A DNA stretch of 64,000 bases from an uncultured Saprospirales bacterium (GTDB lineage Bacteria; Bacteroidota; Bacteroidia; Chitinophagales; Saprospiraceae). The stretch lies in NCBI GenBank assembly GCA_937926355.1, contig CALAZP010000190.1:40-64039 (forward strand), written 5' to 3'. The notes under the pieces were generated by a model. It ran no database searches. It saw only the letters and a list, made by a program, of their open reading frames with translations, and had not been told where the DNA came from. A program made the position numbers and the translations under genes. Shown here piece by piece: positions 483 through 26,400 of this stretch. Position 1 is the first letter of the stretch. Every line of letters starts with the position of its first letter.

Positions 483-1157
483 ATGCCTTATACCCCGCCC
501 AAAATATACCTTGGTGAGATTGTCGATATAAACGATCCGATAAAAGAGGGAAGAGCTAAGATTAGGGTTTTTGGACTCTTTGATGAACTTGAGGTAGAAG
601 ATATTCCATGGGCAAGTCAAGTAAATGGTATTTCTTTCAGCGGGGATGGAAACGGTAGGTTATCCGTTCCTAAATTGGGATCTGTAGTAGCTGTTCAGTT
701 TGATGGTCAGAACTACTATCGAATTACATATTACGGGGAGTGGGAAACTTCTAGGGCCCTTTTAGATGAAATTTCAGATTCATATGAAGGTGCTCAAGCT
801 TTACTTTATGATACAGATGCACAGCCAGGACCTTTAAAAATATTTTATACCAGGAAAAGTGGTATGAATATGATTCTTGGTAATGCAAAGGTACAGCTAG
901 ATACCCAAGACGGCGGACAACTTCGTGTTGTTATCGAAATGGGAGACGATCAAATTAGGATGGAAAATAATAAGGTGATTGTAAACTCTAATAATATTGA
1001 GCTTGGCGAAGCAGCAACCGAATCTGTAATAAAGGGAAATCTATTCCAAACATATTTTAATAACCATACCCACCTAGGAAATTTAGGTGGACCCACTTCT
1101 CCCCCGGTTATACCTTCGGACCCAACTCATCTTTCAAATGTTTCAAAGACCCGATAA
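483..1157 (+). CDS. Baseplate central spike/hub protein (gp5 OB-fold, P2 gpV / Mu gp45 class)
   Basis: N-terminal OB-fold pattern GEIVDINDP..GRAKIRVFG..PWASQV..PKLGSVVAVQFDG. C-terminal NNHTHLGNLGGPTSPP is the HxH spike-tip motif. Confidence 0.8.
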   Translation: MPYTPPKIYLGEIVDINDPIKEGRAKIRVFGLFDELEVEDIPWASQVNGISFSGDGNGRLSVPKLGSVVAVQFDGQNYYRITYYGEWETSRALLDEISDSYEGAQALLYDTDAQPGPLKIFYTRKSGMNMILGNAKVQLDTQDGGQLRVVIEMGDDQIRMENNKVIVNSNNIELGEAATESVIKGNLFQTYFNNHTHLGNLGGPTSPPVIPSDPTHLSNVSKTR

Positions 1158-1160
1158 TGA

Positions 1161-3995
1161 ATGGCTATTTTACCAGATAAAATAATACAGGATTATGAAT
1201 TTGATGCTTTTATCAATAGAGTTAATTCTGGGGCTGAAAAAATTATTAGCGATTCCAAATTTAAGCTAACAACGCCTGATTTACCGGGTCTTTCTTTTTT
1301 GATCAAATTGCAGGTCAGGGTTTTTGAGAAATCCCTTGCCAGTTCTTTTGCTCCTATTTTCATTGGAAAAAACGCATTCAGCAATGGTATAAAGGGAATT
1401 AGAGAAGCTTTCGAAAGCTTGCAGACTTTGTTCTCGAATCCTTTGCAATTTCTTTTGGATGAGGGCGTGAATTCAACTCTAGAGGATTTCCCATTTCCCC
1501 TTAGATTGGAACTTGGTGGTGCAAGTTCGGGCTCTTTAGATTTACCACTCTCGGATGCTAGAGATTTTAGTGGATATCAAACTTTTGATTATAACCCGGT
1601 TTTTAATACCAATGACTTGCCAGAAGCTGGCCAGTATACGACCCAGCAATCCTCTGTTGACACTATCCAATTCATTTCTATAAGTAAAATCACCAACACT
1701 AATAATGAAAACACCCTTTTAGTTGGGGTTAGTCCGGGAGATCCTATTCAAATATCTGATGGTGTTTCTGTTGGAAATTTTACAGTTAGTACTGTTCAAG
1801 ACCAAGGACAAAATAACAGTGTAAGACTGGGTTTAAAGTTTGTTTCTAGCTCGCTTTTAACGGATGCCTCTGCACAGACTTCAATCCCTGGATTTAGCAG
1901 TCCCAGCATCGGATTTGAAAAATGCCAATTGGTGATCAAAAACTTTATTAATCCCGAAGGAGCCTTAAAAATACCAATTTCTGCTCTTGGACTAAACATT
2001 CCCCTTTTAGAAAACCTCACCTTTGTAATGGGGGATTTTAGTCAACTAAAGGAAACCTCACCAACTAAAAAATTTGTGAATAGGCTTTCTCAGGAAACCG
2101 GACTAGAGTTCCAGGACGTATTTAGTGGAATACTTACTGGTAATTTCCCAAACATAGACTTCTCAAAAATCCAGGAGGAATCTGAAGCTGGTATAGACGA
2201 ATCTGAGGAACAAAGCAAAATTGACTTGATTACAGTTGCTAGATTTTTAGAGATTGGTATAACAAATCCTTGTTTCCTCATAGGGATAATACTCAATTAC
2301 GTAAAGCTTCTTCTTCTCCCCATAAAAGTTGTGATAAATGTACTCAAGGGACTTGGTGAATTAATAAGTGGGCCTATTAGGCTTATCCGAACTGTTATAA
2401 AGGGTATCACTGATCCATTAGGGTTAATTTGTGATCTTGTAGCAATTGCATTTCTAGAGGCACTGAGACCTTATATACAAAATCCTTTAGCTGCAGCAAA
2501 TATTACTTGGCAAGAGGCTTTAGAGGATCCTAACGATCCTTCCCGGGGATTAAAACCCTTGATTTCTGATATGGTTTGTGGCATGTTTAGAGATAAGCTT
2601 AAAAATTTTACACCCAGCCAAAGTTTTTTCCAAAGTTTAAGAAACGAATTAGAGGATAATCAAGTTGAAGAACTAGGACCTCAGATAACCTATGATTTAA
2701 GAGTTGATGGGCTTATTCCGTCGGAGGGTCAAGTGTCCGTAAACTCTGAAAATCCCTCGGAGATAAGAAACTTTAAGGTTTCCACTTTCTCAAACACAGT
2801 TGAAAATGCAACCAGTGCTCTTGCAAGTCTTTCCCCTGGGGATGAGTTTACTTTTTCCTTCTTAGATCAGATTGGGAAATATAGAGTAAACACAAAAAAT
2901 TTTATTTCCGATTCGGATTTCCCATATTTCGAAATAAGGGTTCAGTCAATCCCCAATCTTTTAGAAATCGCCTCTTCAAAAAGTGATTCTCAGAAATTAG
3001 TAGATGGATTGAATAACGATAATCTTAGATCTCAACTTTCTATAGACAATCCAGATACTGAGTTCCTTTTTATTTTAGAAAATTATCTTCCGATAAAGCT
3101 GATTGGTGTCTGGGAAGCAATAAAAGGAATGATAGCCATTTTCGGGAGCCTTGCACAACAGGTACCGTCTCTTCTTCCAGCGATAGTCAGAGGGCTATTC
3201 AGTAATGGTAATAACAACCAAAGTCAATCTGAGGTTTTAGCCCTGATCGAGTCCGGTGATTTTGATTTTACTTCTCTTTCTATTGATTCAAGCATCGAGG
3301 TTGTAAATTTGATTTATGGTGGAGGTAGCGATGGACAATCCCTCTCTTTTGCACAATCTTATGTTGATGGGCTTGTTTATCAGTCCACAGATCAATCGGA
3401 CGGCTTCTCGAATAGATTTAGCGAGGAATCAAGGGAAGCTTTATTTGAAATTGTAAATAATAGCCCTAGTTTTTTTGAAGAACCCGGGATAGAGCAGATT
3501 TTTTACGATCTGGGGGATTCTTTGTCAGGAAAGAATAAGGCTCCTGTGGTTTTTAGAAAGAATCTTTCGACCGACCCCGGTAGATTAACTGATCTTAATC
3601 TCTTCTTGAATAGGAGACGGGCAAACGGAGAACCTCTCTTTAGAAGCAATGCTCCGGATAAATCCGAATTTTATTGGGGAGCTTATAATCTTGTAGATAT
3701 TGGTAATACAGTCAAAGTCCTTACCTCTATCATGATGCTGTTTGGTAATCAGTATTATTTTTCTACATCTAATATAAATCTGAGAGATAGAAATATCACT
3801 GTGTATGTAAATAATGACACCGGGACAGGTAGAAGAATACTTTACCAGGGAAGCATCTTAAATGCTCTTAAGAAGTACTATTTCATTAGTTATCCTTTTG
3901 GAGAAAGAATACAATATTGGTCTTTAAGGATTTGCATAAACCGACAAATGAGTCTACTTTCTAATTACCTTTTACCCTCGCTAAAAGAAAGCTAA
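1161..3995 (+). CDS. Large virion protein, 944 aa; possible tape-measure or hub-associated protein
   Basis: Long ORF next to the spike gene. Central hydrophobic segments (ITNPCFLIGIILNYVKLLLLPIKVVINVL, LIGVWEAIKGMIAIFGSLA) resemble tape-measure proteins. No catalytic motif seen. Confidence 0.35.
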   Translation: MAILPDKIIQDYEFDAFINRVNSGAEKIISDSKFKLTTPDLPGLSFLIKLQVRVFEKSLASSFAPIFIGKNAFSNGIKGIREAFESLQTLFSNPLQFLLDEGVNSTLEDFPFPLRLELGGASSGSLDLPLSDARDFSGYQTFDYNPVFNTNDLPEAGQYTTQQSSVDTIQFISISKITNTNNENTLLVGVSPGDPIQISDGVSVGNFTVSTVQDQGQNNSVRLGLKFVSSSLLTDASAQTSIPGFSSPSIGFEKCQLVIKNFINPEGALKIPISALGLNIPLLENLTFVMGDFSQLKETSPTKKFVNRLSQETGLEFQDVFSGILTGNFPNIDFSKIQEESEAGIDESEEQSKIDLITVARFLEIGITNPCFLIGIILNYVKLLLLPIKVVINVLKGLGELISGPIRLIRTVIKGITDPLGLICDLVAIAFLEALRPYIQNPLAAANITWQEALEDPNDPSRGLKPLISDMVCGMFRDKLKNFTPSQSFFQSLRNELEDNQVEELGPQITYDLRVDGLIPSEGQVSVNSENPSEIRNFKVSTFSNTVENATSALASLSPGDEFTFSFLDQIGKYRVNTKNFISDSDFPYFEIRVQSIPNLLEIASSKSDSQKLVDGLNNDNLRSQLSIDNPDTEFLFILENYLPIKLIGVWEAIKGMIAIFGSLAQQVPSLLPAIVRGLFSNGNNNQSQSEVLALIESGDFDFTSLSIDSSIEVVNLIYGGGSDGQSLSFAQSYVDGLVYQSTDQSDGFSNRFSEESREALFEIVNNSPSFFEEPGIEQIFYDLGDSLSGKNKAPVVFRKNLSTDPGRLTDLNLFLNRRRANGEPLFRSNAPDKSEFYWGAYNLVDIGNTVKVLTSIMMLFGNQYYFSTSNINLRDRNITVYVNNDTGTGRRILYQGSILNALKKYYFISYPFGERIQYWSLRICINRQMSLLSNYLLPSLKES

Positions 3996-4006: not shown

Positions 4007-4014
4007 GATATATA
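4007..4014 (+). promoter_or_regulatory. Intergenic octamer GATATATA (candidate phage promoter -10-like element)
   Basis: Context ggtgGATATATAcaac; 29 nt upstream of the ATG at 4044. Confidence 0.45.
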
Positions 4015-4043
4015 CAACAACTAATTTTCTAATTCAAAAATAA

Positions 4044-5210
4044 ATGAACACACCAGAGAACACTGATCAGATCCAGGAAGAATTTGATTGGAATATTTCC
4101 AATCGTAGAAAGATTAACCGAGATATAGAAGTTTTAGATGACTCAAAAGTTTATTGTAGGGAGGATTATGCACAATCTCTCTACTATCAAATGGCTGAAA
4201 GTCTAAAAGGAGTAAGCTCTTCGAAGGATTTGAGAACTGGAAATTCTTATAATAGCACTATTACCTCCCTAACAGATAAGCACGCTATTGCTCAAACTTA
4301 CGAGGGACAATCGATTTATGTTGATGTGGGGAAAGAGAAAAAAGATGCTGATAAACTTGGAATATCTCTAATGGATTTTGAAATTGGGTCCGAGATCCAA
4401 ACCATAGTGAGAAATATTAATGGTACTTATTACGGATCTATAGTAGATTGTTTCATCGAGACAACTAAGCAAGAATTCTTCGAACAGATCAAAAAAGAGT
4501 CCCTTGCTTATGAGGCAAGAATCGAATCCATTAATAACGGAGGTTATATTGTGGATGTTCAAGGCATAAAGTGTTTCTTACCTGGTTCACTTGCAGCTGC
4601 AAATAAGATAACGGACTTTGAGTCTTATTTAGGTAAGAAGATTTGTGTAATGATGGATGGATATGTTCAGAAGAAAGACATATTTGTAGTTTCTTATAAA
4701 AAATATCTTAATAAGATCATGGATCGAAAAATCCAGGAACTTGATCTTACTAAGAAATACAAGGGCTTCGTAACTGGTACTTCCAGCTTTGGAGTTTTCG
4801 TGGAGTGGGAAGACATCTACACAGGTCTTATTCATAAAACAGAGTTCGATAATCAAAAAGTTGAAGGCTTCACCGCTGGAGATGAGATTGAATTTTATGT
4901 CAAAGAAGTAAAGGATGATAATAGGCTAACCTTAACTTTCGGCGAACCTGTTGATAAAACACTAAAAATCTACGATCTCAAAAGGGATCTAGAGGATGGT
5001 GTTTCCCCGATTTCCAACGCAAAAGTTAAGCACAAGAGGAAAAATGGAGCTTTGGTTGAACTATTGGAGTTTGGCTTAATTGCAATGATACCACAAGGTC
5101 GTTTAGGTAAAAGGCATAAAGGTTTAAAAACTGGAGATCAAATCTTGGTAAGCGTTTATGAGGTAGACCAGGTTATGGGAAAAATATTTGTAGAACCAGT
5201 CAATGAATAA
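4044..5210 (+). CDS. Protein with 3-4 S1 (OB-fold) RNA-binding repeats, ribosomal protein bS1-like
   Basis: S1 signatures GGYIVDVQGIKCFLPGSLAA, YKGFVTGTSSFGVFVEWEDIYTGLIHKTEF, AKVKHKRKNGALVELLEFGLIAMIPQGRL. Confidence 0.75.
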   Translation: MNTPENTDQIQEEFDWNISNRRKINRDIEVLDDSKVYCREDYAQSLYYQMAESLKGVSSSKDLRTGNSYNSTITSLTDKHAIAQTYEGQSIYVDVGKEKKDADKLGISLMDFEIGSEIQTIVRNINGTYYGSIVDCFIETTKQEFFEQIKKESLAYEARIESINNGGYIVDVQGIKCFLPGSLAAANKITDFESYLGKKICVMMDGYVQKKDIFVVSYKKYLNKIMDRKIQELDLTKKYKGFVTGTSSFGVFVEWEDIYTGLIHKTEFDNQKVEGFTAGDEIEFYVKEVKDDNRLTLTFGEPVDKTLKIYDLKRDLEDGVSPISNAKVKHKRKNGALVELLEFGLIAMIPQGRLGKRHKGLKTGDQILVSVYEVDQVMGKIFVEPVNE

Positions 5211-6597
5211 CACCCACTTTGATAAAAGACAGTTACTTTCCTCTGCCTTTTTAGGTTTTGAGTTTGAATTCTTCTCTGAAATGGTCAGAGGAAGGATAAC
5301 TGAATCTTTGTCTAAGCTTTTGGGTAAGAAAATAACCCTTTCCAATAAATATCACTCTAAAGATCCTGTTAGTAGGGAGATTTTCAAACTTGAACCCGAC
5401 TATTCTGGAGGGGGAAAAATGAATGAGTTAGTTACTGGTCCCTTACCATATGCAGAAGCTATCCCAGTACTTATCAAGGTTCTTAAATGGATAGATGAAA
5501 ATGGATGGACTACCGATAAGTGCGCTTTCCAATTTTCCCTTAGTTTTGATAAGTTTGATAGATCCATTAAAAGGATGGAGGAGCTTGATAAGCTTCAATT
5601 TATTCTTGGTATTGACGAGGGCTTGATATATTCTAACTTTGGTAACAGAAAAAATAATGTCTATTCTAGGTCCATCAAAAAAGTTGTACCTAGAAATAGA
5701 TTTTCTATTCTCGAAAACGTATCTCATATAGATCCGAAGTTATTCAAAATTCCGGATGAGAAGTATTATGGTGCCAATTTTACAAAAGTACCAAAAGGGT
5801 ATATTGAAATAAGGTATCTGGGTGGTAAAGACTACCAGAAAAAGATTACCGCAATCCGCGACGTAATAGACTATGTTGTTCTTTATACCCATGATATTTT
5901 ATCCGGTAGGAGGTCATACACAAAGACAGACTTAGAAAATCTTAAATCCATGATGAAAGAATATTCTAAGGTTGTGAGGAGCTTCTCAGATCCTGAGTCA
6001 TTCTTCACGAATTTCCCAGATTTCCATCTTTTGGTTGATCTTAAGGGATATTTAGAAAACATTAAAACATACTTCCCCTACATCAGGGAAAAGGTTTTTG
6101 ATATAATAGTGGAGGGTAACGTGAAGAACGGATTCTTCAATTATGATACCACTAATGGGAGATTTCAGCTTAAGGATGTAAAAATCAAAAGCGCTGCATA
6201 CTTAGATAATTTAGACCTTATAAACTGTAAGGTGAGATCCTCTAAATTGGATAATTGTAGGATATTCAGCTGTGACGTTAGAAATAGCGAAATATATAAT
6301 TCTGAGATTTTAAATGGGAATAAGATTTCTAAATCCAAAATTAAGGATACCAGCGCTGATTTTGGAAATAAGCTCATAGAGTGCTACATAGATTCCCCCG
6401 AAAAAATGCTCGATTGTGAAATCACAGGTGGCGTTTTGAGGAAGGGTGATATCGGGAGAAATGCTGATGTAAGCAAGGAGACTGAAAAAGCTAAAGACTT
6501 TAATGAAATAAGAAAGGGTAGGTTTATCACAGATTCTAGATTAAAAAACCTAAATGATCCTATTTCTAGAATAAAGTTTAAAAATCAGAACTACTAA
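5203..6597 (+). CDS. Hypothetical protein; N-terminal region tentatively amidoligase-like (COOH-NH2 ligase fold), C-terminal pentapeptide/beta-helix-like repeats
   Basis: LGFEFEFF, EPDYSGGGKMNELVTGPLPY and YIEIRYLGGKDY fit the amidoligase strand pattern, but the HVH position reads QFS. C-terminal run is NCKVRSSKLDNCRIFSCDVRNSEIYNSEILNGNKISKSKI. Confidence 0.3.
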   Translation: MNNTHFDKRQLLSSAFLGFEFEFFSEMVRGRITESLSKLLGKKITLSNKYHSKDPVSREIFKLEPDYSGGGKMNELVTGPLPYAEAIPVLIKVLKWIDENGWTTDKCAFQFSLSFDKFDRSIKRMEELDKLQFILGIDEGLIYSNFGNRKNNVYSRSIKKVVPRNRFSILENVSHIDPKLFKIPDEKYYGANFTKVPKGYIEIRYLGGKDYQKKITAIRDVIDYVVLYTHDILSGRRSYTKTDLENLKSMMKEYSKVVRSFSDPESFFTNFPDFHLLVDLKGYLENIKTYFPYIREKVFDIIVEGNVKNGFFNYDTTNGRFQLKDVKIKSAAYLDNLDLINCKVRSSKLDNCRIFSCDVRNSEIYNSEILNGNKISKSKIKDTSADFGNKLIECYIDSPEKMLDCEITGGVLRKGDIGRNADVSKETEKAKDFNEIRKGRFITDSRLKNLNDPISRIKFKNQNY

Positions 6598-6598
6598 A

Positions 6599-7375
6599 AT
6601 GACTTTAGAAGAATTAGTACAGGAAATTAAGGACGATCTTTCAGCAAGCTGTTCGCTGCCATATAACTTGAATGATGATGAAATTCATAGAATCATCAGA
6701 AGGGCAAAGTTGTACATGTATGACAACTACCAGTATGCTGCTGAAGAGAGGGTATTCATCCTGGCTAATAATCTTTTCGCTCACGAGGAATTTAGAAGGA
6801 CCAGACAAATAAAGCTTCCTGAGAAGATTGTAAGCGTGTATGACGTTAGAGAGGTAAATGGGATGGGAATAGCTGGTACCCCGGATAGAGACTTTGGTGA
6901 TTCTAAGCTGTTGGGATCTGAACTTTTGCTTTCCCCCTTTACTGGAGATAACCTGGTTTATAGAACTGTCATGTACTCTTATTTTGATCTAGCACAGGCA
7001 TATCTTCTTCCTACTTTTGCTTTCAAGTTCAATAAGAACAATAAAAAGCTAACCATACTTGGTCGTGATCCCAATAGATCTGGGTCTGGCGGCGTCGGAA
7101 CTGGATATAACCAAAATGGAATGGATGTTGCTGTTAGGTGCTTTATTGCTATCGACGACTATGAATTATATGACGACGAACTTTTTGTAAGATATTGCTT
7201 AGCGAGAGCTAAAATTTCACTATCACGCGTTCTGAGTGCATTTGATTATAACCTTCCTGGTGGAGTAAGAGTAAACACTTCCGAATTAAGATCAGACGGA
7301 GAACGTGAACTCCAGGAGGTAATGGATATGATCAACGGAGAGAACACTCCTTCTTATTTCTTACAGTGGAATTAA
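6599..7375 (+). CDS. Hypothetical virion-module protein, 258 aa
   Basis: Long ORF tightly packed between structural genes; no motif recognised. Confidence 0.5.
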   Translation: MTLEELVQEIKDDLSASCSLPYNLNDDEIHRIIRRAKLYMYDNYQYAAEERVFILANNLFAHEEFRRTRQIKLPEKIVSVYDVREVNGMGIAGTPDRDFGDSKLLGSELLLSPFTGDNLVYRTVMYSYFDLAQAYLLPTFAFKFNKNNKKLTILGRDPNRSGSGGVGTGYNQNGMDVAVRCFIAIDDYELYDDELFVRYCLARAKISLSRVLSAFDYNLPGGVRVNTSELRSDGERELQEVMDMINGENTPSYFLQWN

Positions 7376-7406: not shown

Positions 7407-7778
7407 ATGGTAGAGATTTATAACAGAGATCCCCAAGACCCTAACTACAAAGAAAATGTGGTTGAGATAACTCAACCTGTAGAAATTTGTATAGGCCAAC
7501 TTAAAATGTTGCTCCTTACAAATAAGGGAGAAGTTTTAGGTGATCCTAAATTTGGTCTAAATTTGGAGGAACTGGTTTTTAGCTTAGAACTTTCGGAAGC
7601 AACTCTTAGGGAAGAGATAGAAAAAGGTCTTAGGTTTTATGTACCCCTGTTTGGTCAGTTGGCTGGTTATTTTGATTTAAAATTTTACCAGGGGACTGAG
7701 AGGGATATTTGTCTTTTGGATTTTTACATCCCAAGCTCAGGTAACGAAAGCCCTTTAATATCATTGAAAGTAAGTTAA
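7407..7778 (+). CDS. gp25: Baseplate wedge protein, gp25/gpW-like
   Basis: GPW/gp25 pattern IGQLKMLLLTNKGEVLGDPKFGLNLEELVFS; about 120 aa; lies immediately upstream of the gpJ-like gene. Confidence 0.75.
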   Translation: MVEIYNRDPQDPNYKENVVEITQPVEICIGQLKMLLLTNKGEVLGDPKFGLNLEELVFSLELSEATLREEIEKGLRFYVPLFGQLAGYFDLKFYQGTERDICLLDFYIPSSGNESPLISLKVS

Positions 7779-7782
7779 AAAG

Positions 7783-9564
7783 ATGGCTAATAACATTTTT
7801 AGGAAAAATAACATCCTCATCCAAGGTCTTCTGGGAGATTCTTTTGAATTTCTCCAAAGAACTTATAATCAAACAAGAAACGTTTTTACTGTTGCTTCTG
7901 CATGGGGCCAGATCCTTTTTGTCCTCGAAAATCTGTCCCAGCTGATTCTTTATTTCATAGAGGATTCTATCACGGAACTTAATATGCAGGAGGCTACCAG
8001 GAATTACTCCATTAAAAGCTTGGCAAGGATTGCTGGATATGACCCAGTTAGAGGAATGGCTGCGCAAGGAGAAGCTTCTGTTGCTTGGAATCTAAGAGAA
8101 GATGACGCTGGTGGAGGGGCAGTTATTTTAAGCAATAACCCTAAAATCCAGAATATCCAAAACGGCCTTCCATACACCCTTATCTTGAATTCACCAACTG
8201 TGAAAGTTCCGCTTTCTAGAGGTAAGGCATTCAACTTTAAAGTAGTGCAGGGTGCTTTTTCATCCTCTACTTTTACTGGAACCGGCCAATCTTTGCAGAG
8301 TTTTAATTTACCATCTAAGGCTGGTGCCTATATTGACCAGTTTTATGTTAATGTTTATGTAAATGGCACTCCGTGGGAAAGATATGAGTCCCTTTATGAT
8401 ATACCATTTGAGGGTGAAGGATACCTTGTAAAAACTGGGATAAGCGAGGGTATAGACATTTATTTTGGTAACTCCAATTTTGGAAAGATACCACAGGCAG
8501 GAAGTACAATTAGGGTTGAATATCTACAGACCTCTGGATTTAGTGGAAACCTCCAAGCAAAGAAAGATGCTACTCTTACTTACAGGTTCCTTGATAGCGG
8601 TACGGATCTTTTTGGCAATGATGTTAACCTAAACAACTATCTTACAATAACTGGAGTACTAGATCCAAGTTTTGGTGCAGATCCTGAACCAATCGAGCTA
8701 ACCAGGATAGTAGCTCCTAAAACAAGTAGGTCTTATGTTTTTGCAAATGCCGAAAACTATGAGATCTATCTTCAAAAACTAAATATATTTTCTCAAATTC
8801 AAGCTTTTTCAACCTTTGATGATGAGTATCTTGACGATGATAATGTCGTGTATATTTTTCTAGTCCCTGACGTTACCATATCCATGTCATCTAACCAAGA
8901 CTATTTTGATATTCCTCAAGATCAATTTCTATTGACGCAATCTCAAAAGCTTTCTTTATTAAACCTAATCGAAGATTCCGGGAGAATGATTGCAACTACT
9001 GTTGTGAAAATACTTGATCCTGAGATAAAGAGGTTTATTGGTAATGTTTCTATGTCAATCTTTGAGGGCTATGATCCTGAGGTATTGAAAGATAAAGTTA
9101 GGGATAGAATCTCAGAATATATGCTGAATACGAAAAGGCGTGATAGAATTCCAAAATCCGACATCATAGCCCTTATAGAGGGTATTGAGGGAGTAGATTC
9201 TGTTTCTTTCTTTTTTGTTGGCGAAGAGAACGAAAGATATCACCTTACAGTAGATAATTTGTCTAATGCATCCCAAGCCCAATTGGACAGAGAAATTGGA
9301 TTAGATCAGTATGGGGACATTATTATCGGGAGTGGGGAACTTATTTTGCTTAGAGGAGGCTGGACCGATAGATACGGAACAGTGTACGAGGAAGGAATAG
9401 TTAGTGGTAAGCCCTCTGCTTTAAATATAGCTGTAACTAGTATAAATCCAAGAAATTTCCTAAGCAATCTTAACGCGCAAACAAAAGCGAAGTTAATGGA
9501 GCAAAACAATACCAGCAGTGGTAGTGCAGTTGGAAGAAGGGCAAACTCAAGGAGTACCCTATAA
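7783..9564 (+). CDS. Baseplate wedge protein, gpJ/gp6-like
   Basis: Conserved W-J synteny directly after the gp25-like gene, and size (593 aa). No motif-level confirmation. Confidence 0.5.
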   Translation: MANNIFRKNNILIQGLLGDSFEFLQRTYNQTRNVFTVASAWGQILFVLENLSQLILYFIEDSITELNMQEATRNYSIKSLARIAGYDPVRGMAAQGEASVAWNLREDDAGGGAVILSNNPKIQNIQNGLPYTLILNSPTVKVPLSRGKAFNFKVVQGAFSSSTFTGTGQSLQSFNLPSKAGAYIDQFYVNVYVNGTPWERYESLYDIPFEGEGYLVKTGISEGIDIYFGNSNFGKIPQAGSTIRVEYLQTSGFSGNLQAKKDATLTYRFLDSGTDLFGNDVNLNNYLTITGVLDPSFGADPEPIELTRIVAPKTSRSYVFANAENYEIYLQKLNIFSQIQAFSTFDDEYLDDDNVVYIFLVPDVTISMSSNQDYFDIPQDQFLLTQSQKLSLLNLIEDSGRMIATTVVKILDPEIKRFIGNVSMSIFEGYDPEVLKDKVRDRISEYMLNTKRRDRIPKSDIIALIEGIEGVDSVSFFFVGEENERYHLTVDNLSNASQAQLDREIGLDQYGDIIIGSGELILLRGGWTDRYGTVYEEGIVSGKPSALNIAVTSINPRNFLSNLNAQTKAKLMEQNNTSSGSAVGRRANSRSTL

Positions 9565-23488: not shown

Positions 23489-26400
23489 ATGGCATCAACA
23501 CAAAATTCAATAAGTTCTCTAGTAGCTCAGTTCCTTAGACTGCAAAAAAATTCATTGGAGATCATTAATGGCCTTAATGAGGTAGCAACTTCTACTAACG
23601 ATAATGTACAAATTGAGCTGCTTGATGAAAATGGTTTGCCATCTTTCACTAGTATTCCAGCTTACGGTTACCTTAGAAGTGAGATAGAAAGACTTGATTC
23701 TAACATTCAATCACTTGCAGGTTTAGGTGACAACTTTGCTACTGTTAGAAATCCTGATGGAACTTACAGCCAGGTTTATAGATCTCAGCCTATTAAAGAT
23801 CCTACCCAACTTGCTAACCTTCAGGTCCCAAGCACATTTTCTGCTAGAGACAATTGGTTTTTTGAAAGCTTTTTAAGTCCTTTGCTTTACATATCAATCG
23901 ACGTCACAGGTCAGGTTGCCGATGACGCCGATCGTGTTAGGGTCAAAAGAATTATTGCAAATACGAATACCGACGAGAAGAAGGCTTATTTTGACGACAA
24001 TTTAAATGGAAGGAACGATTTATCGGAACAGGATTTTATTAATGATTTAGAGGATGCCGGCATCGACTATTTTGTGGATGAGGACAATATAGATCTTCCA
24101 CTTAGATCAATACGAAATCGAGGCTCTTTTGGTGTTCTATCCTTTTTTGATGATGTAGTAACAATAACAGATGCTAACGGAAACCAGGTCCAAGAAACTA
24201 GGAGGAATTACAAGTTAAATACTGTTAATTACACAGATACAACCTCTAATGTAACCAATGGAAGGACCTTAGCAGTTGGCGATACCTTGTTAACTAACGA
24301 TGGGACAAGATATCTAATTACTGCTGTAAATATTGAAGAAACCTCGGTACAACTAAAAAGAACCTCTGGTTATCAGCCTGTCCAGATCGGTGACAATCAA
24401 TTAACTTTAGAGTCCAGCCAGCTGAGTGCAAGGCTCATAGAAGTTAATGTTGGATTTGACGAGAGACAAGGTATTTTCTTTAAGCAAATAGATGACAACT
24501 TTAATATAGTTGGATCTACGTGGTCTACTGGAATTGTTATTTACAGTAATGAATTAACAATTAATACGGATTCTGGAGTACAAACCCTTGAGCAATTCTA
24601 CCTAAACTCAGTAGCAGATCTGGGTCAAATATTCCTTGGGATGGCTAAGGAGAAAAAGATAAATGCCATAAATGGTCTTATCCCAGATGCACCTGCAGTT
24701 TCTGCTACAAATTTCAGAGTAGTTCAGGTTAATACACAGCTTACCGAGGGTACTGATGTGCAAACCTTGAATGATAAAGTTGCTTTAAAGGCAACCTTAC
24801 AATCCGAAATTCAACAGATAGATGGGTCAATATCAAAAGCCAGAACAGACTTAAATTCTGTTTCTTCTACGAATGTACTTGCCAACAATACTCTGACGGC
24901 TCAAACTAACTCACTAAGTCGGGGTAATGACCAAGCATCTAGCTCTATATTGGCTTCTTTAAATTCATTGACTCAGCAAAGGGTACAAAAACAACAACTA
25001 CTTGCTTCTGTTGTTAGTGATATTACCACAATCTCGGAAACGAATACACAATTTAAGGTAGAGCCAAAATACAGGGTAAGAGGATTTTGGCCTATCCCTT
25101 TACCAAAATCAAGCACTGTCACCGGGGATCAAAGCGTTATACAGTTCATTATACAGTATAGGTACCTTTCTGAAGCTGGTGCTTCTCCTGCGGTACAACA
25201 GATAAGCTACCTCGATGATAATGGTCAGGAAAAAACTGGGGCTTTTTCTAACTGGACTGAGATAAAATCCGAGATAAGAAAGAAAATCTTTGATGCAAAC
25301 ACTGGAACGTACGTTTGGGCTCCGGAGGATACGGAGAATGCGGATGCAACAAATATCAATCAGCTTGATATCCCAATTACCAAGGGAGAACGAGTTGAAA
25401 TAAGAATCAAATCGGTTTCTGAAGCTGGCTGGCCGGATAATCCAGTAACCTCGGAATTCTCCGATCCAGTGGTGGTCACATTCCCTGACGATCTTTCAAC
25501 TCAAAGTACTGTCGAAAGTGTAAATAGTAACTTGAAAGACGAAGCTGTCCTTGCAATCCAACAGGATTTATCAGCTAAAGGAATAGACGGCCTTTTGAAC
25601 CAACAGGTAGTTACTGGTAATAAAACTTACTATTTAGCATCAAGCTCTATTTTAAGCGGGTATTTTGATTCTGCCGGAAATCCTTTGGATCTTTTCCAGA
25701 AGCTCACCGAACTTCAAGATCAGCTAAACTCTTTAAGGGCAACTGTAGAAAACGCAACTGGCATTTTGGAAGTTTATCTTGTAGACGGTACAAATACACA
25801 ACTTGTAAGTAACGGATCGACTATAAATCTTAATGCTGGATATTTTAACCAGATATACCAGAACGCATCTACTTCTGATGCTGGTAAAATAGCTTCTACT
25901 GTTTATGAGATAAAGATCAGCAATACCTCTGCCGGTCTATTGGAACTCTCATCCATACTTCCTGGAGGGCTAACAACGCTTGCAGGAACAAGCTCTTCGT
26001 ATGCTTTACCTGATGGTTATTCTAGTAATTTAAGATATGGAGAAGTGCCAATTTCAATTACTTCTTTAACCACTTCAGATATAATTCCGGTTGGATCTAC
26101 TGGAGGTGCAAACGACGATTCTTTTAAAGAATACAGACAAGCCCCTCCTTATGCTTCTGGTAATTCTAACAGCCAGTTTGTATATCCTAGATGGAAGTCT
26201 GTTGGATTTGATAGCGATTTGTACATAACTCCATCTGCTTTTGCTGGTTCTTATCTATATGCTGGTGACGCAAGCGGATTACCTAGAAACGGAAGTCAGC
26301 TATTACCCTACGACCCAACAAATGCTTCGGTACCAACTGCTTCCGGAACAGATGCTAATGTTTGGAGTGGTGTAATTACCGGTGCAACTGGTAGCTATAC

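What the first reader, a model, noticed from the sequence alone, without database searches (positions are those of the whole stretch)
4044..5210. Ribosomal-protein-S1-like multi-OB protein embedded in the baseplate operon
The 388-aa product carries at least three clear S1 domains, for example GFVTGTSSFGVFVEWEDIYTGLIHKTEF. It sits between the spike/large-protein genes and the gp25/gpJ wedge genes, preceded by its own GATATATA element. Starts in this window have A-rich leaders and no Shine-Dalgarno sequence. Bacteroidota-type translation initiation of that kind is known to depend on bS1 and unstructured leaders. A phage S1 homolog expressed with late genes could bias ribosomes towards phage late mRNAs. 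Alternatively it could be an RNA-binding virion component.
Basis: partly seen in the sequence, partly recalled or inferred. Interest (0 to 1): 0.6.

Follow-up and report, generated by a model that had tools for sequence, protein, structure and literature searches.

The report
Phage-encoded mini ribosomal protein S1
A giant phage of Bacteroidota carries a shortened copy of ribosomal protein S1 that keeps the part S1 uses to dock on the ribosome, so it probably sits on host ribosomes and helps translate phage messages; such phage S1 genes, and this idea, were already published in 2020.

Summary
ORF 4044-5210 encodes a 388-aa protein with a significant Pfam S1 hit (three stretches). The predicted structure has four OB folds. 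The gene lies inside a baseplate gene block, has GATATATA 37 nt upstream, and has an A-rich leader without a Shine-Dalgarno sequence.

The protein is a truncated bS1. A profile of the family aligns collinearly with E. coli bS1 domains D1-D4 (E=2e-63). Phage D1 and D2 match only bacterial D1 and D2, which form the ribosome-binding half. The N-terminus carries an FDW motif found in bS1 of class Bacteroidia only, where that helix docks on uS8/uS2. D5 and D6 are missing.

The family is virus-specific: at least 595 IMG/VR contigs, complete genomes of 270-434 kb, and only 2 hits in 185,579 cellular genomes. In 80 of 80 relatives the gene keeps its place in the baseplate block. In Lak megaphages it lies among tRNA-repair and replication genes, so it is unlikely to be a structural part.

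The most likely function (about 0.55) is replacing or supplementing host bS1 on the 30S subunit to favour SD-less phage mRNAs. This is inferred, not shown. Al-Shayeb et al. 2020 already proposed it for "possible rpS1s" of huge phages. The gene is a new member of a known kind, and the docking-motif evidence is the new element.

The parts
4007..4014 (+). GATATATA promoter-like element in front of the S1-like gene
   Evidence: Exact match. Conserved 31-56 nt upstream of the S1-like start in 46 of 62 distinct relatives. The same 8-mer precedes gp25 (7380), fibre-like gene 20354, genes 49577 and 53381, RuvC-like 40775 and dUTPase-like 60077.
4015..4043 (+). A/T-rich leader without a Shine-Dalgarno sequence (caacaactaattttctaattcaaaaataa)
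   Evidence: Sequence read. Window-wide leader statistics. The host bin shows the same SD-less pattern.
4044..5210 (+). CDS of the phage mini-bS1 (388 aa)
4077..4091 (+). FDW motif (residues 12-16, EFDWN), counterpart of the uS8-contacting helix of Bacteroidia bS1
   Evidence: An aromatic-x-W motif occurs in 120 of 120 close homologs (113 with [FYW][DNE]W, 7 with FSW). It occurs in 14 of 14 class-Bacteroidia bS1 and 0 of 15 bS1 from other Bacteroidota classes. hhalign score 21.1, P=2e-4, against a maximum of 14.4 in 30 shuffles. The F. johnsoniae helix FLANFNWHNF contacts uS8 (PMC13000457). pLDDT is low here.
4143..4202 (+). Second N-terminal segment KVYCREDYAQSLYYQMAESL (residues 34-53, predicted helix 43-53), at the position of the uS2-binding helix of bS1
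   Evidence: AF2 helix 43-53, pLDDT 86 for residues 41-50. Y42 is invariant in 45 sequences. The segment is more conserved than D1 or D4 in the diverse set. In the distant phage clade this segment matches the bacterial bS1 helix at P=3e-7 and 1.4e-7. For the window's own type that match is not significant.
4242..4442 (+). OB domain D1 (residues 67-133), bS1-D1 type
   Evidence: The domain HMM best-hits host D1 in 29 of 29 Bacteroidota bS1, 16.6 bits against at most 2.2 for the other domains. Pfam S1 does not detect it.
4506..4697 (+). OB domain D2 (residues 155-218), bS1-D2 type with the FLPGSL signature; the most conserved part of the family
   Evidence: The domain HMM best-hits host D2 in 29 of 29, 41.2 bits against at most 3.1. 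Aligned with E. coli D2. Conservation 0.60. The N-terminal part (about 173 residues) superposes on the ribosome-bound N-terminal part of E. coli bS1 at TM 0.73-0.74, rmsd 3.5-3.8 A.
4752..4940 (+). Canonical RNA-binding S1 domain D3 (residues 237-299)
   Evidence: Best Pfam S1 stretch, 238-296. Carries the G-x-V-x5-FG-x-FV ... GL-x-H signature. Most similar to host D5 and D4.
5007..5207 (+). S1/OB domain D4 (residues 322-388), less canonical
   Evidence: S1 stretch at about 326-382, OB_cyt-4 at 328-386, AF2 OB fold.
5203..6597 (+). Downstream gene overlapping the S1-like stop by 8 nt; glutamine-synthetase-fold (amidoligase-like) N-terminal part plus a pentapeptide-repeat beta-helix
   Evidence: Overlap from the coordinates. 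Always directly downstream of the S1-like gene in relatives. AF2 pLDDT 83.9. Foldseek matches are weak: GS E=7e-5 with TM 0.24-0.28, AlbG/MfpA-type beta-helix E=4e-3.
483..1157 (+). Context: baseplate hub / spike OB protein
   Evidence: phrog_430 E=2e-13, Pfam Phage_base_V.
7407..9564 (+). Context: gp25-like (7407-7778) and gp6/J-like (7783-9564) wedge genes
   Evidence: PF04965, phrog_261, phrog_219 E=1.4e-28.

Best explanation
ORF 4044-5210 encodes a virus-specific, shortened ribosomal protein bS1 ('mini-bS1'). It has an N-terminal docking segment, the two ribosome-proximal OB domains D1-D2, and two RNA-binding S1 domains. D5-D6 are absent. It is probably made from its own GATATATA promoter-like element as the first gene of a small unit inside the baseplate block. 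It would then bind the host 30S subunit at the bS1 site (uS2/uS8 platform), replacing or supplementing the loosely bound host bS1. There it would capture the A-rich, SD-less, unstructured leaders of phage mRNAs, raising or biasing translation when large amounts of virion protein are needed. Shown here: homology, domain orthology, N-terminal motif, conservation, gene context. Inferred: ribosome binding, mRNA preference, timing.
For: Pfam S1 E=6.6e-16 in three stretches. Every NCBIfam match better than E=1e-8 is an rpsA model or PNPase; the best one-stretch match is the 4-domain model NF005208, residues 55-377 on 7-339 of 391. The family profile hits E. coli bS1 at E=2e-63, collinear 51-344 on 12-305. 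AF2 gives four OB folds and an N-terminal helix. The top Foldseek hits are ribosome-bound bS1 (9gut_B, E=4e-21); chains that hold only the N-terminal ~172 residues of bS1 superpose at TM 0.73-0.74. Phage D1 and D2 match only bacterial D1 and D2, in 29 of 29 each. The FxW motif is in 120 of 120 close homologs and in Lak phages. It is in 14 of 14 class-Bacteroidia bS1 and 0 of 15 bS1 of other classes. hhalign scores exceed all shuffles. [quoted passage not shown] Helix 2 and D2 are among the most conserved parts. Phage and binned host both lack SD and have A-rich leaders. The family is virus-specific: at least 595 IMG/VR contigs and 2 loci in 185,579 cellular genomes. In Lak megaphages the homolog sits with Thg1, RNA ligase, PNK and DnaB. 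There is a published parallel: phage bS21 in the structural region of Bacteroidetes phages, expressed late (PMC9723584).
Against: Scores are far below the rpsA equivalog cut-offs: 73 against 577 bits, 70.5 against 368. Identity to the binned host's bS1 is only 23-27%. The FDW region has low pLDDT. The hhalign P for the window's type is modest (2e-4), was chosen after inspection, and its helix 2 is not significantly similar to host helix 2. S1 D1-D2 can also anchor S1 to non-ribosomal partners, as in Q-beta replicase (4q7j and 4r71 among the Foldseek hits). Phage leaders differ only slightly from host leaders (49% against 43% A), so no discriminating mRNA feature was found. GATATATA also precedes a resolvase gene and a dUTPase-like gene, so 'late' is not established.
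Confidence: 0.55

Rival explanations
1. Host shut-off decoy. The mini-bS1 occupies the bS1 site through its N-terminus and D1-D2. Because it lacks D5-D6, it supports a narrower set of mRNAs, so its main effect is to inhibit host translation rather than stimulate phage translation.
For: It has the same docking features as the main explanation. D5-D6 are missing in the whole family: lengths are about 370-410 aa in 114 representative clusters at E<1e-30.
Against: Phage and host leaders are nearly alike, so a simple loss of host mRNA recognition has no visible basis. Both RNA-binding domains are kept and D3 is strongly conserved.
Confidence: 0.15
2. Off-ribosome RNA factor. The protein works as an mRNA chaperone or protector, or as the RNA-binding subunit of a phage enzyme. 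This would resemble host S1 with T4 RegB or in Q-beta replicase, with D1-D2 holding the partner.
For: S1 D1-D2 anchor S1 to the Q-beta replicase beta subunit; those structures are among the Foldseek hits. In Lak phages the gene lies among RNA ligase, PNK and Thg1. Here it overlaps an enzyme-like gene by 8 nt. Al-Shayeb et al. left open 'on or off the ribosome'.
Against: The class-specific FDW docking motif and the bS1-type N-terminal helix are hard to explain for a non-ribosomal partner.
Confidence: 0.17
3. Virion-associated protein. It would be made with baseplate proteins, packed into the particle as a structural OB-fold part or as cargo, and delivered into the next cell, where it could act on the first phage mRNAs.
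For: Its position between hub and wedge genes is fixed in 80 of 80 relatives. The motif it shares also precedes virion genes. OB folds are common in tail hubs.
Against: No PHROG structural family hit. No T4-type capsid-targeting leader, unlike several proteins of this phage. Lak homologs are outside any structural block. The sequence is a bS1 in every part.
Confidence: 0.08

Closest known systems
Bacterial ribosomal protein bS1 (rpsA), especially Bacteroidia bS1 as seen on the F. johnsoniae 30S subunit (PMC13000457)
   Same: N-terminal docking segment with the F[D/N]W motif. D1 and D2 of bS1 type, including the FLPGSL signature. Canonical RNA-binding S1 domains follow. Collinear alignment over D1-D4.
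   Different: Four domains instead of six (388 aa against about 590-650 aa). Only 23-27% identical to the binned host's protein. Far below the rpsA equivalog cut-offs. Phage D3 resembles bacterial D4/D5 more than D3. Encoded almost only by viruses.
'Possible rpS1' proteins of huge phages and Lak megaphages (Al-Shayeb et al. 2020, PMC7162821)
   Same: Same protein family: tblastn hits of 27-34% identity in Lak-A/B/C and in LR745206 and LR756500-504. Same correlation with genomes lacking SD sequences, and the same proposed role in initiation.
   Different: That paper did not resolve whether these are true rpS1. The D1-D2 orthology, the docking motif and the fixed baseplate-block position with its own promoter-like element are worked out here. 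Lak homologs lie in a different gene context.
Phage-encoded bS21 of Bacteroidetes-infecting huge phages (Chen et al. 2022, PMC9723584)
   Same: A small-subunit platform protein involved in initiation. Encoded inside the structural gene region of large phages of SD-less Bacteroidetes. Proposed to substitute into host ribosomes late in infection.
   Different: A different protein. bS21 expression was shown by metatranscriptomics, and nothing comparable exists for this S1. Seven complete relatives of this phage have no bS21.
bS1 of the jumbo cyanophage PhiMa05 (ISME J 2026, PMC13157829)
   Same: A cultured phage encoding a bS1 homolog, with replacement of the host protein proposed.
   Different: In PhiMa05 it is part of a recently acquired block of ribosomal protein genes from a Vampirovibrio-like host. 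Here it is an old, diverged, single-gene, virus-specific family.

Membership tests
Pfam S1 RNA-binding domain (PF00575) | Score above the gathering threshold of 22 bits | tested here: met
   58.9 bits, E=6.6e-16, three stretches. Also over the cut-off in the genome scan.
Ribosomal protein bS1 (rpsA) | Tandem OB/S1 domains collinear with bS1 | tested here: met
   Family profile against E. coli bS1: E=2e-63, 51-344 on 12-305. AF2 gives four OB folds. Foldseek top hits are bS1.
Ribosomal protein bS1 (rpsA) | bS1-specific N-terminal domains D1 and D2 (the ribosome-binding half) | tested here: met
   Phage D1 best-hits host D1 in 29 of 29 and phage D2 best-hits host D2 in 29 of 29, with other domains near 0 bits. 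The N-terminal ~173 residues superpose on the ribosome-bound N-terminal part of bS1 at TM 0.73-0.74.
Ribosomal protein bS1 (rpsA) | N-terminal peptide that docks on uS2 (and on uS8 in Bacteroidia) | tested here: inconclusive
   The FxW motif is shared with 14 of 14 Bacteroidia bS1. hhalign P=2e-4 for the window's type, and 3e-7 and 1.4e-7 for the distant phage clade, all above shuffles. Helix 43-53 is predicted. Helix 2 of the window's type is not significantly similar, and binding itself was not tested.
Ribosomal protein bS1 (rpsA) | Score at or above the NCBIfam equivalog cut-off | tested here: not met
   TIGR00717: 73.1 against 577 bits. NF005208: 70.5 against 368 bits.
Ribosomal protein bS1 (rpsA) | Six-domain architecture of Bacteroidota and Proteobacteria bS1 (D5, D6 present) | tested here: not met
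   Four domains in 388 aa. The whole family is about 370-410 aa. The host protein has six.
Ribosomal protein bS1 (rpsA) | Physical presence on the 30S subunit and stimulation of initiation | not testable with these tools
   Needs biochemistry.
Phage baseplate / tail structural proteins | Homology to a known structural family, and a place in the structural block across relatives | tested here: not met
   No PHROG hit. The position is fixed in the window's clade, but in Lak phages the gene lies among RNA and DNA metabolism genes.
T4-type capsid-targeted (packaged, injected) proteins | N-terminal capsid-targeting-like leader as on other proteins of this phage | tested here: not met
   The N-terminus MNTPENTDQIQEEFDWN does not resemble the recurrent leader of genes 49577, 50074 and 53381.

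The most novel reading that the evidence does not exclude
The N-terminal peptide of the phage mini-bS1 is a lineage-matched 'key' for the host's ribosomal platform. Phage clades carry the FDW helix typical of class Bacteroidia, or only the EY..E...LYEG-type helix common to Bacteroidota bS1. If so, the peptide co-evolves with host uS2/uS8 and could predict host range. Together with the overlapping glutamine-synthetase-fold ligase-like gene, it may form a ribosome-remodelling unit that gives phage mRNAs priority on SD-blind ribosomes.
Probability: 0.2. Interest if true: 0.7.

Novelty: new member of a known kind. Interest (0 to 1): 0.48.

Why it matters
Bacteroidia ribosomes ignore Shine-Dalgarno sequences, and how bS1 selects mRNAs there is an open question. 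The nucleotides at -12/-13 and most of bS1 were invisible in the 2026 cryo-EM work (PMC13000457). This family is a natural, strongly conserved, minimal bS1: docking peptide, D1-D2 and two RNA-binding domains. It is encoded by hundreds of huge phages. That makes it a ready-made tool to define which parts of bS1 suffice for SD-less initiation. It also allows a direct test, in the existing F. johnsoniae in vitro system, of whether phages reprogram ribosomes by swapping a platform protein. If the docking peptide tracks host lineage, it could also help assign hosts to uncultured giant phages.

Tried and rejected
- PHROGs gave no family for the protein.
- Megablast of 20 kb against GenBank phages found nothing.
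- The PDB chain named 'Ribosomal protein S1 homologue' (28jw/9tvu) looked like a possible phage structure, but it belongs to the Chlamydomonas chlororibosome.
- I looked for a co-encoded phage bS21. None was found in seven complete relatives, LR756500 or the Lak phages; only LR745206 has one.
- An S21-like ORF lies on contig C224 of the same bin. I could not tie that contig to this phage.
- A rooted phylogeny against bS1 of all phyla was not possible, since only Bacteroidota bS1 could be fetched. By crude profile score, E. coli bS1 (218 bits) scores higher than a 591-aa bS1 chain of F. johnsoniae-like length (183 bits). The OB domains therefore show no special affinity to Bacteroidia, and the origin stays open.
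- Sequence searches of PDB with the two downstream proteins found nothing.
- Leader composition does not separate phage from host mRNAs in any clear way.
- Recent capture from the binned host is rejected: identity is only 23-27%.

Full report
**1. Observation**

ORF 4044-5210 on the + strand is open and encodes 388 aa. Pfam S1 (PF00575) matches at E=6.6e-16, 58.9 bits against a gathering score of 22, in three stretches.

The neighbours confirm the context:
- 483-1157 is a gpV/gp5-type hub OB protein (phrog_430, E=2e-13).
- 7407-7778 is gp25-like.
- 7783-9564 is a gp6/J-type wedge protein (phrog_219, E=1.4e-28).

GATATATA lies at 4007-4014, 37 nt before the ATG. Leaders in the window are A-rich, with 49-62% A from -16 to -7. 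Only 9 of 47 starts have a loose SD core. All points of the observation are confirmed. One correction: two more genes (5203-6597 and 6599-7375) separate the S1-like gene from gp25.

**2. Source of the window**

The window is contig C190 (64.2 kb, 38% GC) of a 2.99-Mb, 336-contig metagenomic bin of a Bacteroidota bacterium. The bin has its own six-domain rpsA on C215. Its genes also lack SD sequences and show the Bacteroidia-type A peak at -14 to -11. The contig is a fragment of a huge phage. Relatives in IMG/VR include complete genomes of 270-434 kb, some with direct terminal repeats.

**3. What the protein is**

Sequence evidence:
- Every NCBIfam match better than E=1e-8 is an rpsA model or PNPase. 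The best single-stretch alignment is to the four-domain model NF005208, residues 55-377 on positions 7-339 of 391. All scores are far below the equivalog cut-offs: 73 against 577 bits and 70.5 against 368 bits.
- A profile of 25 diverse family members hits E. coli bS1 at E=2e-63. The best stretch is collinear, profile 51-344 on residues 12-305, which covers D1 to the start of D4.

Structure evidence:
- AlphaFold2 on a 45-sequence alignment gives mean pLDDT 81. It shows four OB folds (68-132, 156-217, 238-298, 323-385) and a helix at 43-53.
- The top Foldseek hits are ribosome-bound bS1 (9gut_B, E=4e-21). Chains that hold only the N-terminal ~172 residues of bS1 superpose at TM 0.73-0.74, rmsd 3.5-3.8 A.

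Domain orthology, tested with separate domain HMMs against 29 Bacteroidota bS1 proteins:

| Phage domain | Best-matching bacterial domain | Mean bits |
|---|---|---|
| D1 | D1 in 29 of 29 | 16.6, others at most 2.2 |
| D2 | D2 in 29 of 29 | 41.2, others at most 3.1 |
| D3 | D5 in 29 of 29 | 31.2 (D4 23.0, D3 10.6) |
| D4 | D4, D5 or D6 (13, 11, 5) | 37.4, 36.0, 25.1 |

The protein is therefore a mini-bS1. It has the ribosome-binding half of bS1 plus two canonical RNA-binding domains, and it lacks D5-D6.

**4. The N-terminus**

In F. johnsoniae, bS1 residues 4-40 form a helix-loop-helix docked on uS2 and uS8. The helix FLANFNWHNF contacts uS8 (PMC13000457). I fetched bS1 from 60 Bacteroidota genomes and read the N-termini of 29. 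All 14 members of class Bacteroidia carry [F/Y][D/N]W, for example AHDDFDWSIDKRN, FNWHNF and FDWDAYEKGE. None of the 15 from other classes does.

The window's protein reads EEFDWNISNRR. In the close clade, 113 of 120 proteins have [FYW][DNE]W and the other 7 have FSW. Lak megaphages of Prevotella have GSFDWSPYDDG.

Profile-profile comparison of the N-terminal peptides alone:

| Comparison | hhalign score | P | Control |
|---|---|---|---|
| Window's type against Bacteroidia bS1, aligned on FDW | 21.1 | 2e-4 | maximum 14.4 in 30 column shuffles |
| Distant phage clade (N-termini YTRDEYSPEERAVMDELYEGHF) against bS1 helix 2 of other Bacteroidota classes | 30.8 | 3e-7 | shuffles at most 10.9 |
| Distant phage clade against helix 2 of Bacteroidia bS1 | 33.2 | 1.4e-7 | shuffles at most 13.5 |
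| Window's type against the N-termini (helix 2) of bS1 from other Bacteroidota classes | 8.5 | 0.19 | not significant |

Helix 2 of the window's type (KVYCREDYAQSLYYQM) is predicted helical at the equivalent place, and Y42 is invariant in 45 sequences. Helix 2 and D2 are among the most conserved parts of the family.

Caveats: the segments are short, I chose them after looking at the alignments, and the FDW region has low pLDDT.

**5. Distribution and context**

- The family is large and old. There are 508 hits at 90% clustering, with JGI automatic names 'ribosomal protein S1'. There are 114 clusters at 50% identity with E<1e-30, nearly all 370-410 aa. At least 595 IMG/VR contigs encode a relative.
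- A family-specific signature found only 2 loci in 185,579 species-representative cellular genomes. One is in a Flavobacteriaceae MAG. The family is therefore essentially viral.
- In 80 of 80 IMG/VR loci, down to 35% identity, the order is hub, (variable ORF), S1-like, 5203-homolog, 6599-homolog, gp25, gp6-like. The hub, S1-like, 5203-homolog and 6599-homolog lie in the same order in LR756500.
- In Lak-B5 the homolog lies among tRNA-His guanylyltransferase, RNA ligase, polynucleotide kinase, endonucleases and DnaB. The baseplate position is thus a clade feature, not evidence of a structural role.
- The protein has no structural PHROG hit.

**6. Expression signals**

GATATATA is kept 31-56 nt upstream of the S1-like start in 46 of 62 distinct relatives. 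The exceptions are the distant clade, which has another upstream motif, a few truncated loci and L053.

In the window the motif also precedes gp25, a fibre-like gene (20354), two genes that open with a T4-like capsid-targeting-type leader (49577, 53381), a RuvC-like resolvase and a dUTPase-like gene. It looks like a phage promoter, possibly a late one analogous to T4's TATAAATA, but its timing is not established.

The S1-like stop overlaps the next start by 8 nt (5203-5210). That next gene folds as a glutamine-synthetase-like domain plus a pentapeptide-repeat beta-helix. The model has pLDDT 83.9, but the Foldseek matches are weak: E=7e-5 with TM 0.24-0.28. The S1-like gene therefore seems to head a small unit that is not obviously structural.

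**7. Mechanism**

Most likely (about 0.55), the protein docks at the bS1 site of host 30S subunits through its N-terminal peptide and D1-D2. It then uses its two S1 domains to bring A-rich, SD-less phage leaders to the ribosome, supplementing or displacing the exchangeable host bS1. Homology, orthology of the docking half, motif conservation and SD-less leaders are shown. Binding, selectivity and timing are inferred.

Rivals:
- A host shut-off decoy (0.15).
- An off-ribosome RNA factor or enzyme subunit, as host S1 serves T4 RegB and Q-beta replicase (0.17).
- A packaged virion protein (0.08).

Phage and host leaders differ only slightly, 49% against 43% A. No basis for discriminating between them was found.

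**8. Comparison with what is known, and novelty**

Al-Shayeb et al. 2020 reported 'possible rpS1s' in huge phages. They noted that those phages rarely have SD sequences and proposed a role in initiation 'on or off the ribosome', while stating that true rpS1 could not be confirmed (PMC7162821). The Lak and LR75xxxx genomes of that work carry homologs of this protein.

Mizuno et al. 2019 left S1-domain proteins aside as ambiguous. Chen et al. 2022 showed late expression of phage bS21 placed in the structural region of Bacteroidetes phages. A cultured cyanophage with a bS1 was described in 2026.

What this analysis adds:
- the D1-D2 orthology;
- the Bacteroidia-specific docking motif;
- the mini-bS1 architecture;
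- the virus-only distribution;
- the fixed position with its own conserved promoter-like element.

Interest is moderate. A translation specialist would find the natural minimal bS1 useful and testable, but the concept is not new and nothing functional is shown.

Noticed in passing
L125 (G000 contig C224, 23827-23973; ORF 23776-24009): A second, short bS21-like gene in the same bin (Pfam S21 27.9 bits, product MIIIDVTKEKSIDSALKKFRNKF...). It is 47% identical to the bS21 of huge phage LR745206, which also has an S1 homolog. C224 is rich in GATATATA (9 copies in 26.8 kb), and the adjacent gene starts with a T4-like capsid-targeting-type leader (MENLKIYESFIQDINE). It may belong to this or another phage. 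Seven complete relatives lack any bS21.
   Followed up: partly
window 5203-6597: The gene overlapping the S1-like stop folds as a glutamine-synthetase-like (amidoligase-type) domain followed by a pentapeptide-repeat beta-helix. It is always directly downstream of the S1-like gene in relatives. A ligase next to a ribosomal-protein mimic raises the untested idea of protein modification.
   Followed up: partly
window 4007, 7380, 20312, 40383, 40742, 49563, 53354, 54244, 60018 (+ strand): GATATATA recurs at intergenic positions or gene ends, at seven of the nine sites 14-59 nt before a start codon (10 copies against 3.45 expected). It precedes both virion genes and DNA-metabolism genes, and looks like a phage promoter of T4-late-like simplicity.
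   Followed up: partly
L110-L117 and L119-L122, about 40-60 nt upstream of the S1-like start: The distant phage clade lacks GATATATA. Most members share instead GGGGTTTGGTACTAAAAT upstream of the S1-like gene. The clade also has a different N-terminal type, without FDW.
   Followed up: no
L013-L042 (Bacteroidota rpsA loci): The F[D/N]W helix at the bS1 N-terminus is present in 14 of 14 class-Bacteroidia genomes sampled and in 0 of 15 from other Bacteroidota classes. It is a clean class-level marker of the ribosomal platform contact.
   Followed up: yes
L001 8953-10062 and neighbours (Prevotella phage Lak-B5, TAG read as Q): The Lak S1 homolog (369 aa) lies next to a tRNA-His guanylyltransferase, an RNA ligase, a polynucleotide kinase-like gene and DnaB. 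This is a cluster of RNA-repair, translation-related and replication genes.
   Followed up: partly
window 1161-3995: The 944-aa ORF between the hub and the S1-like gene is the only variable member of the block. It is 28-68% identical in the closer relatives (88% in two) and undetectable or replaced in most others, while its flanking genes stay put.
   Followed up: no
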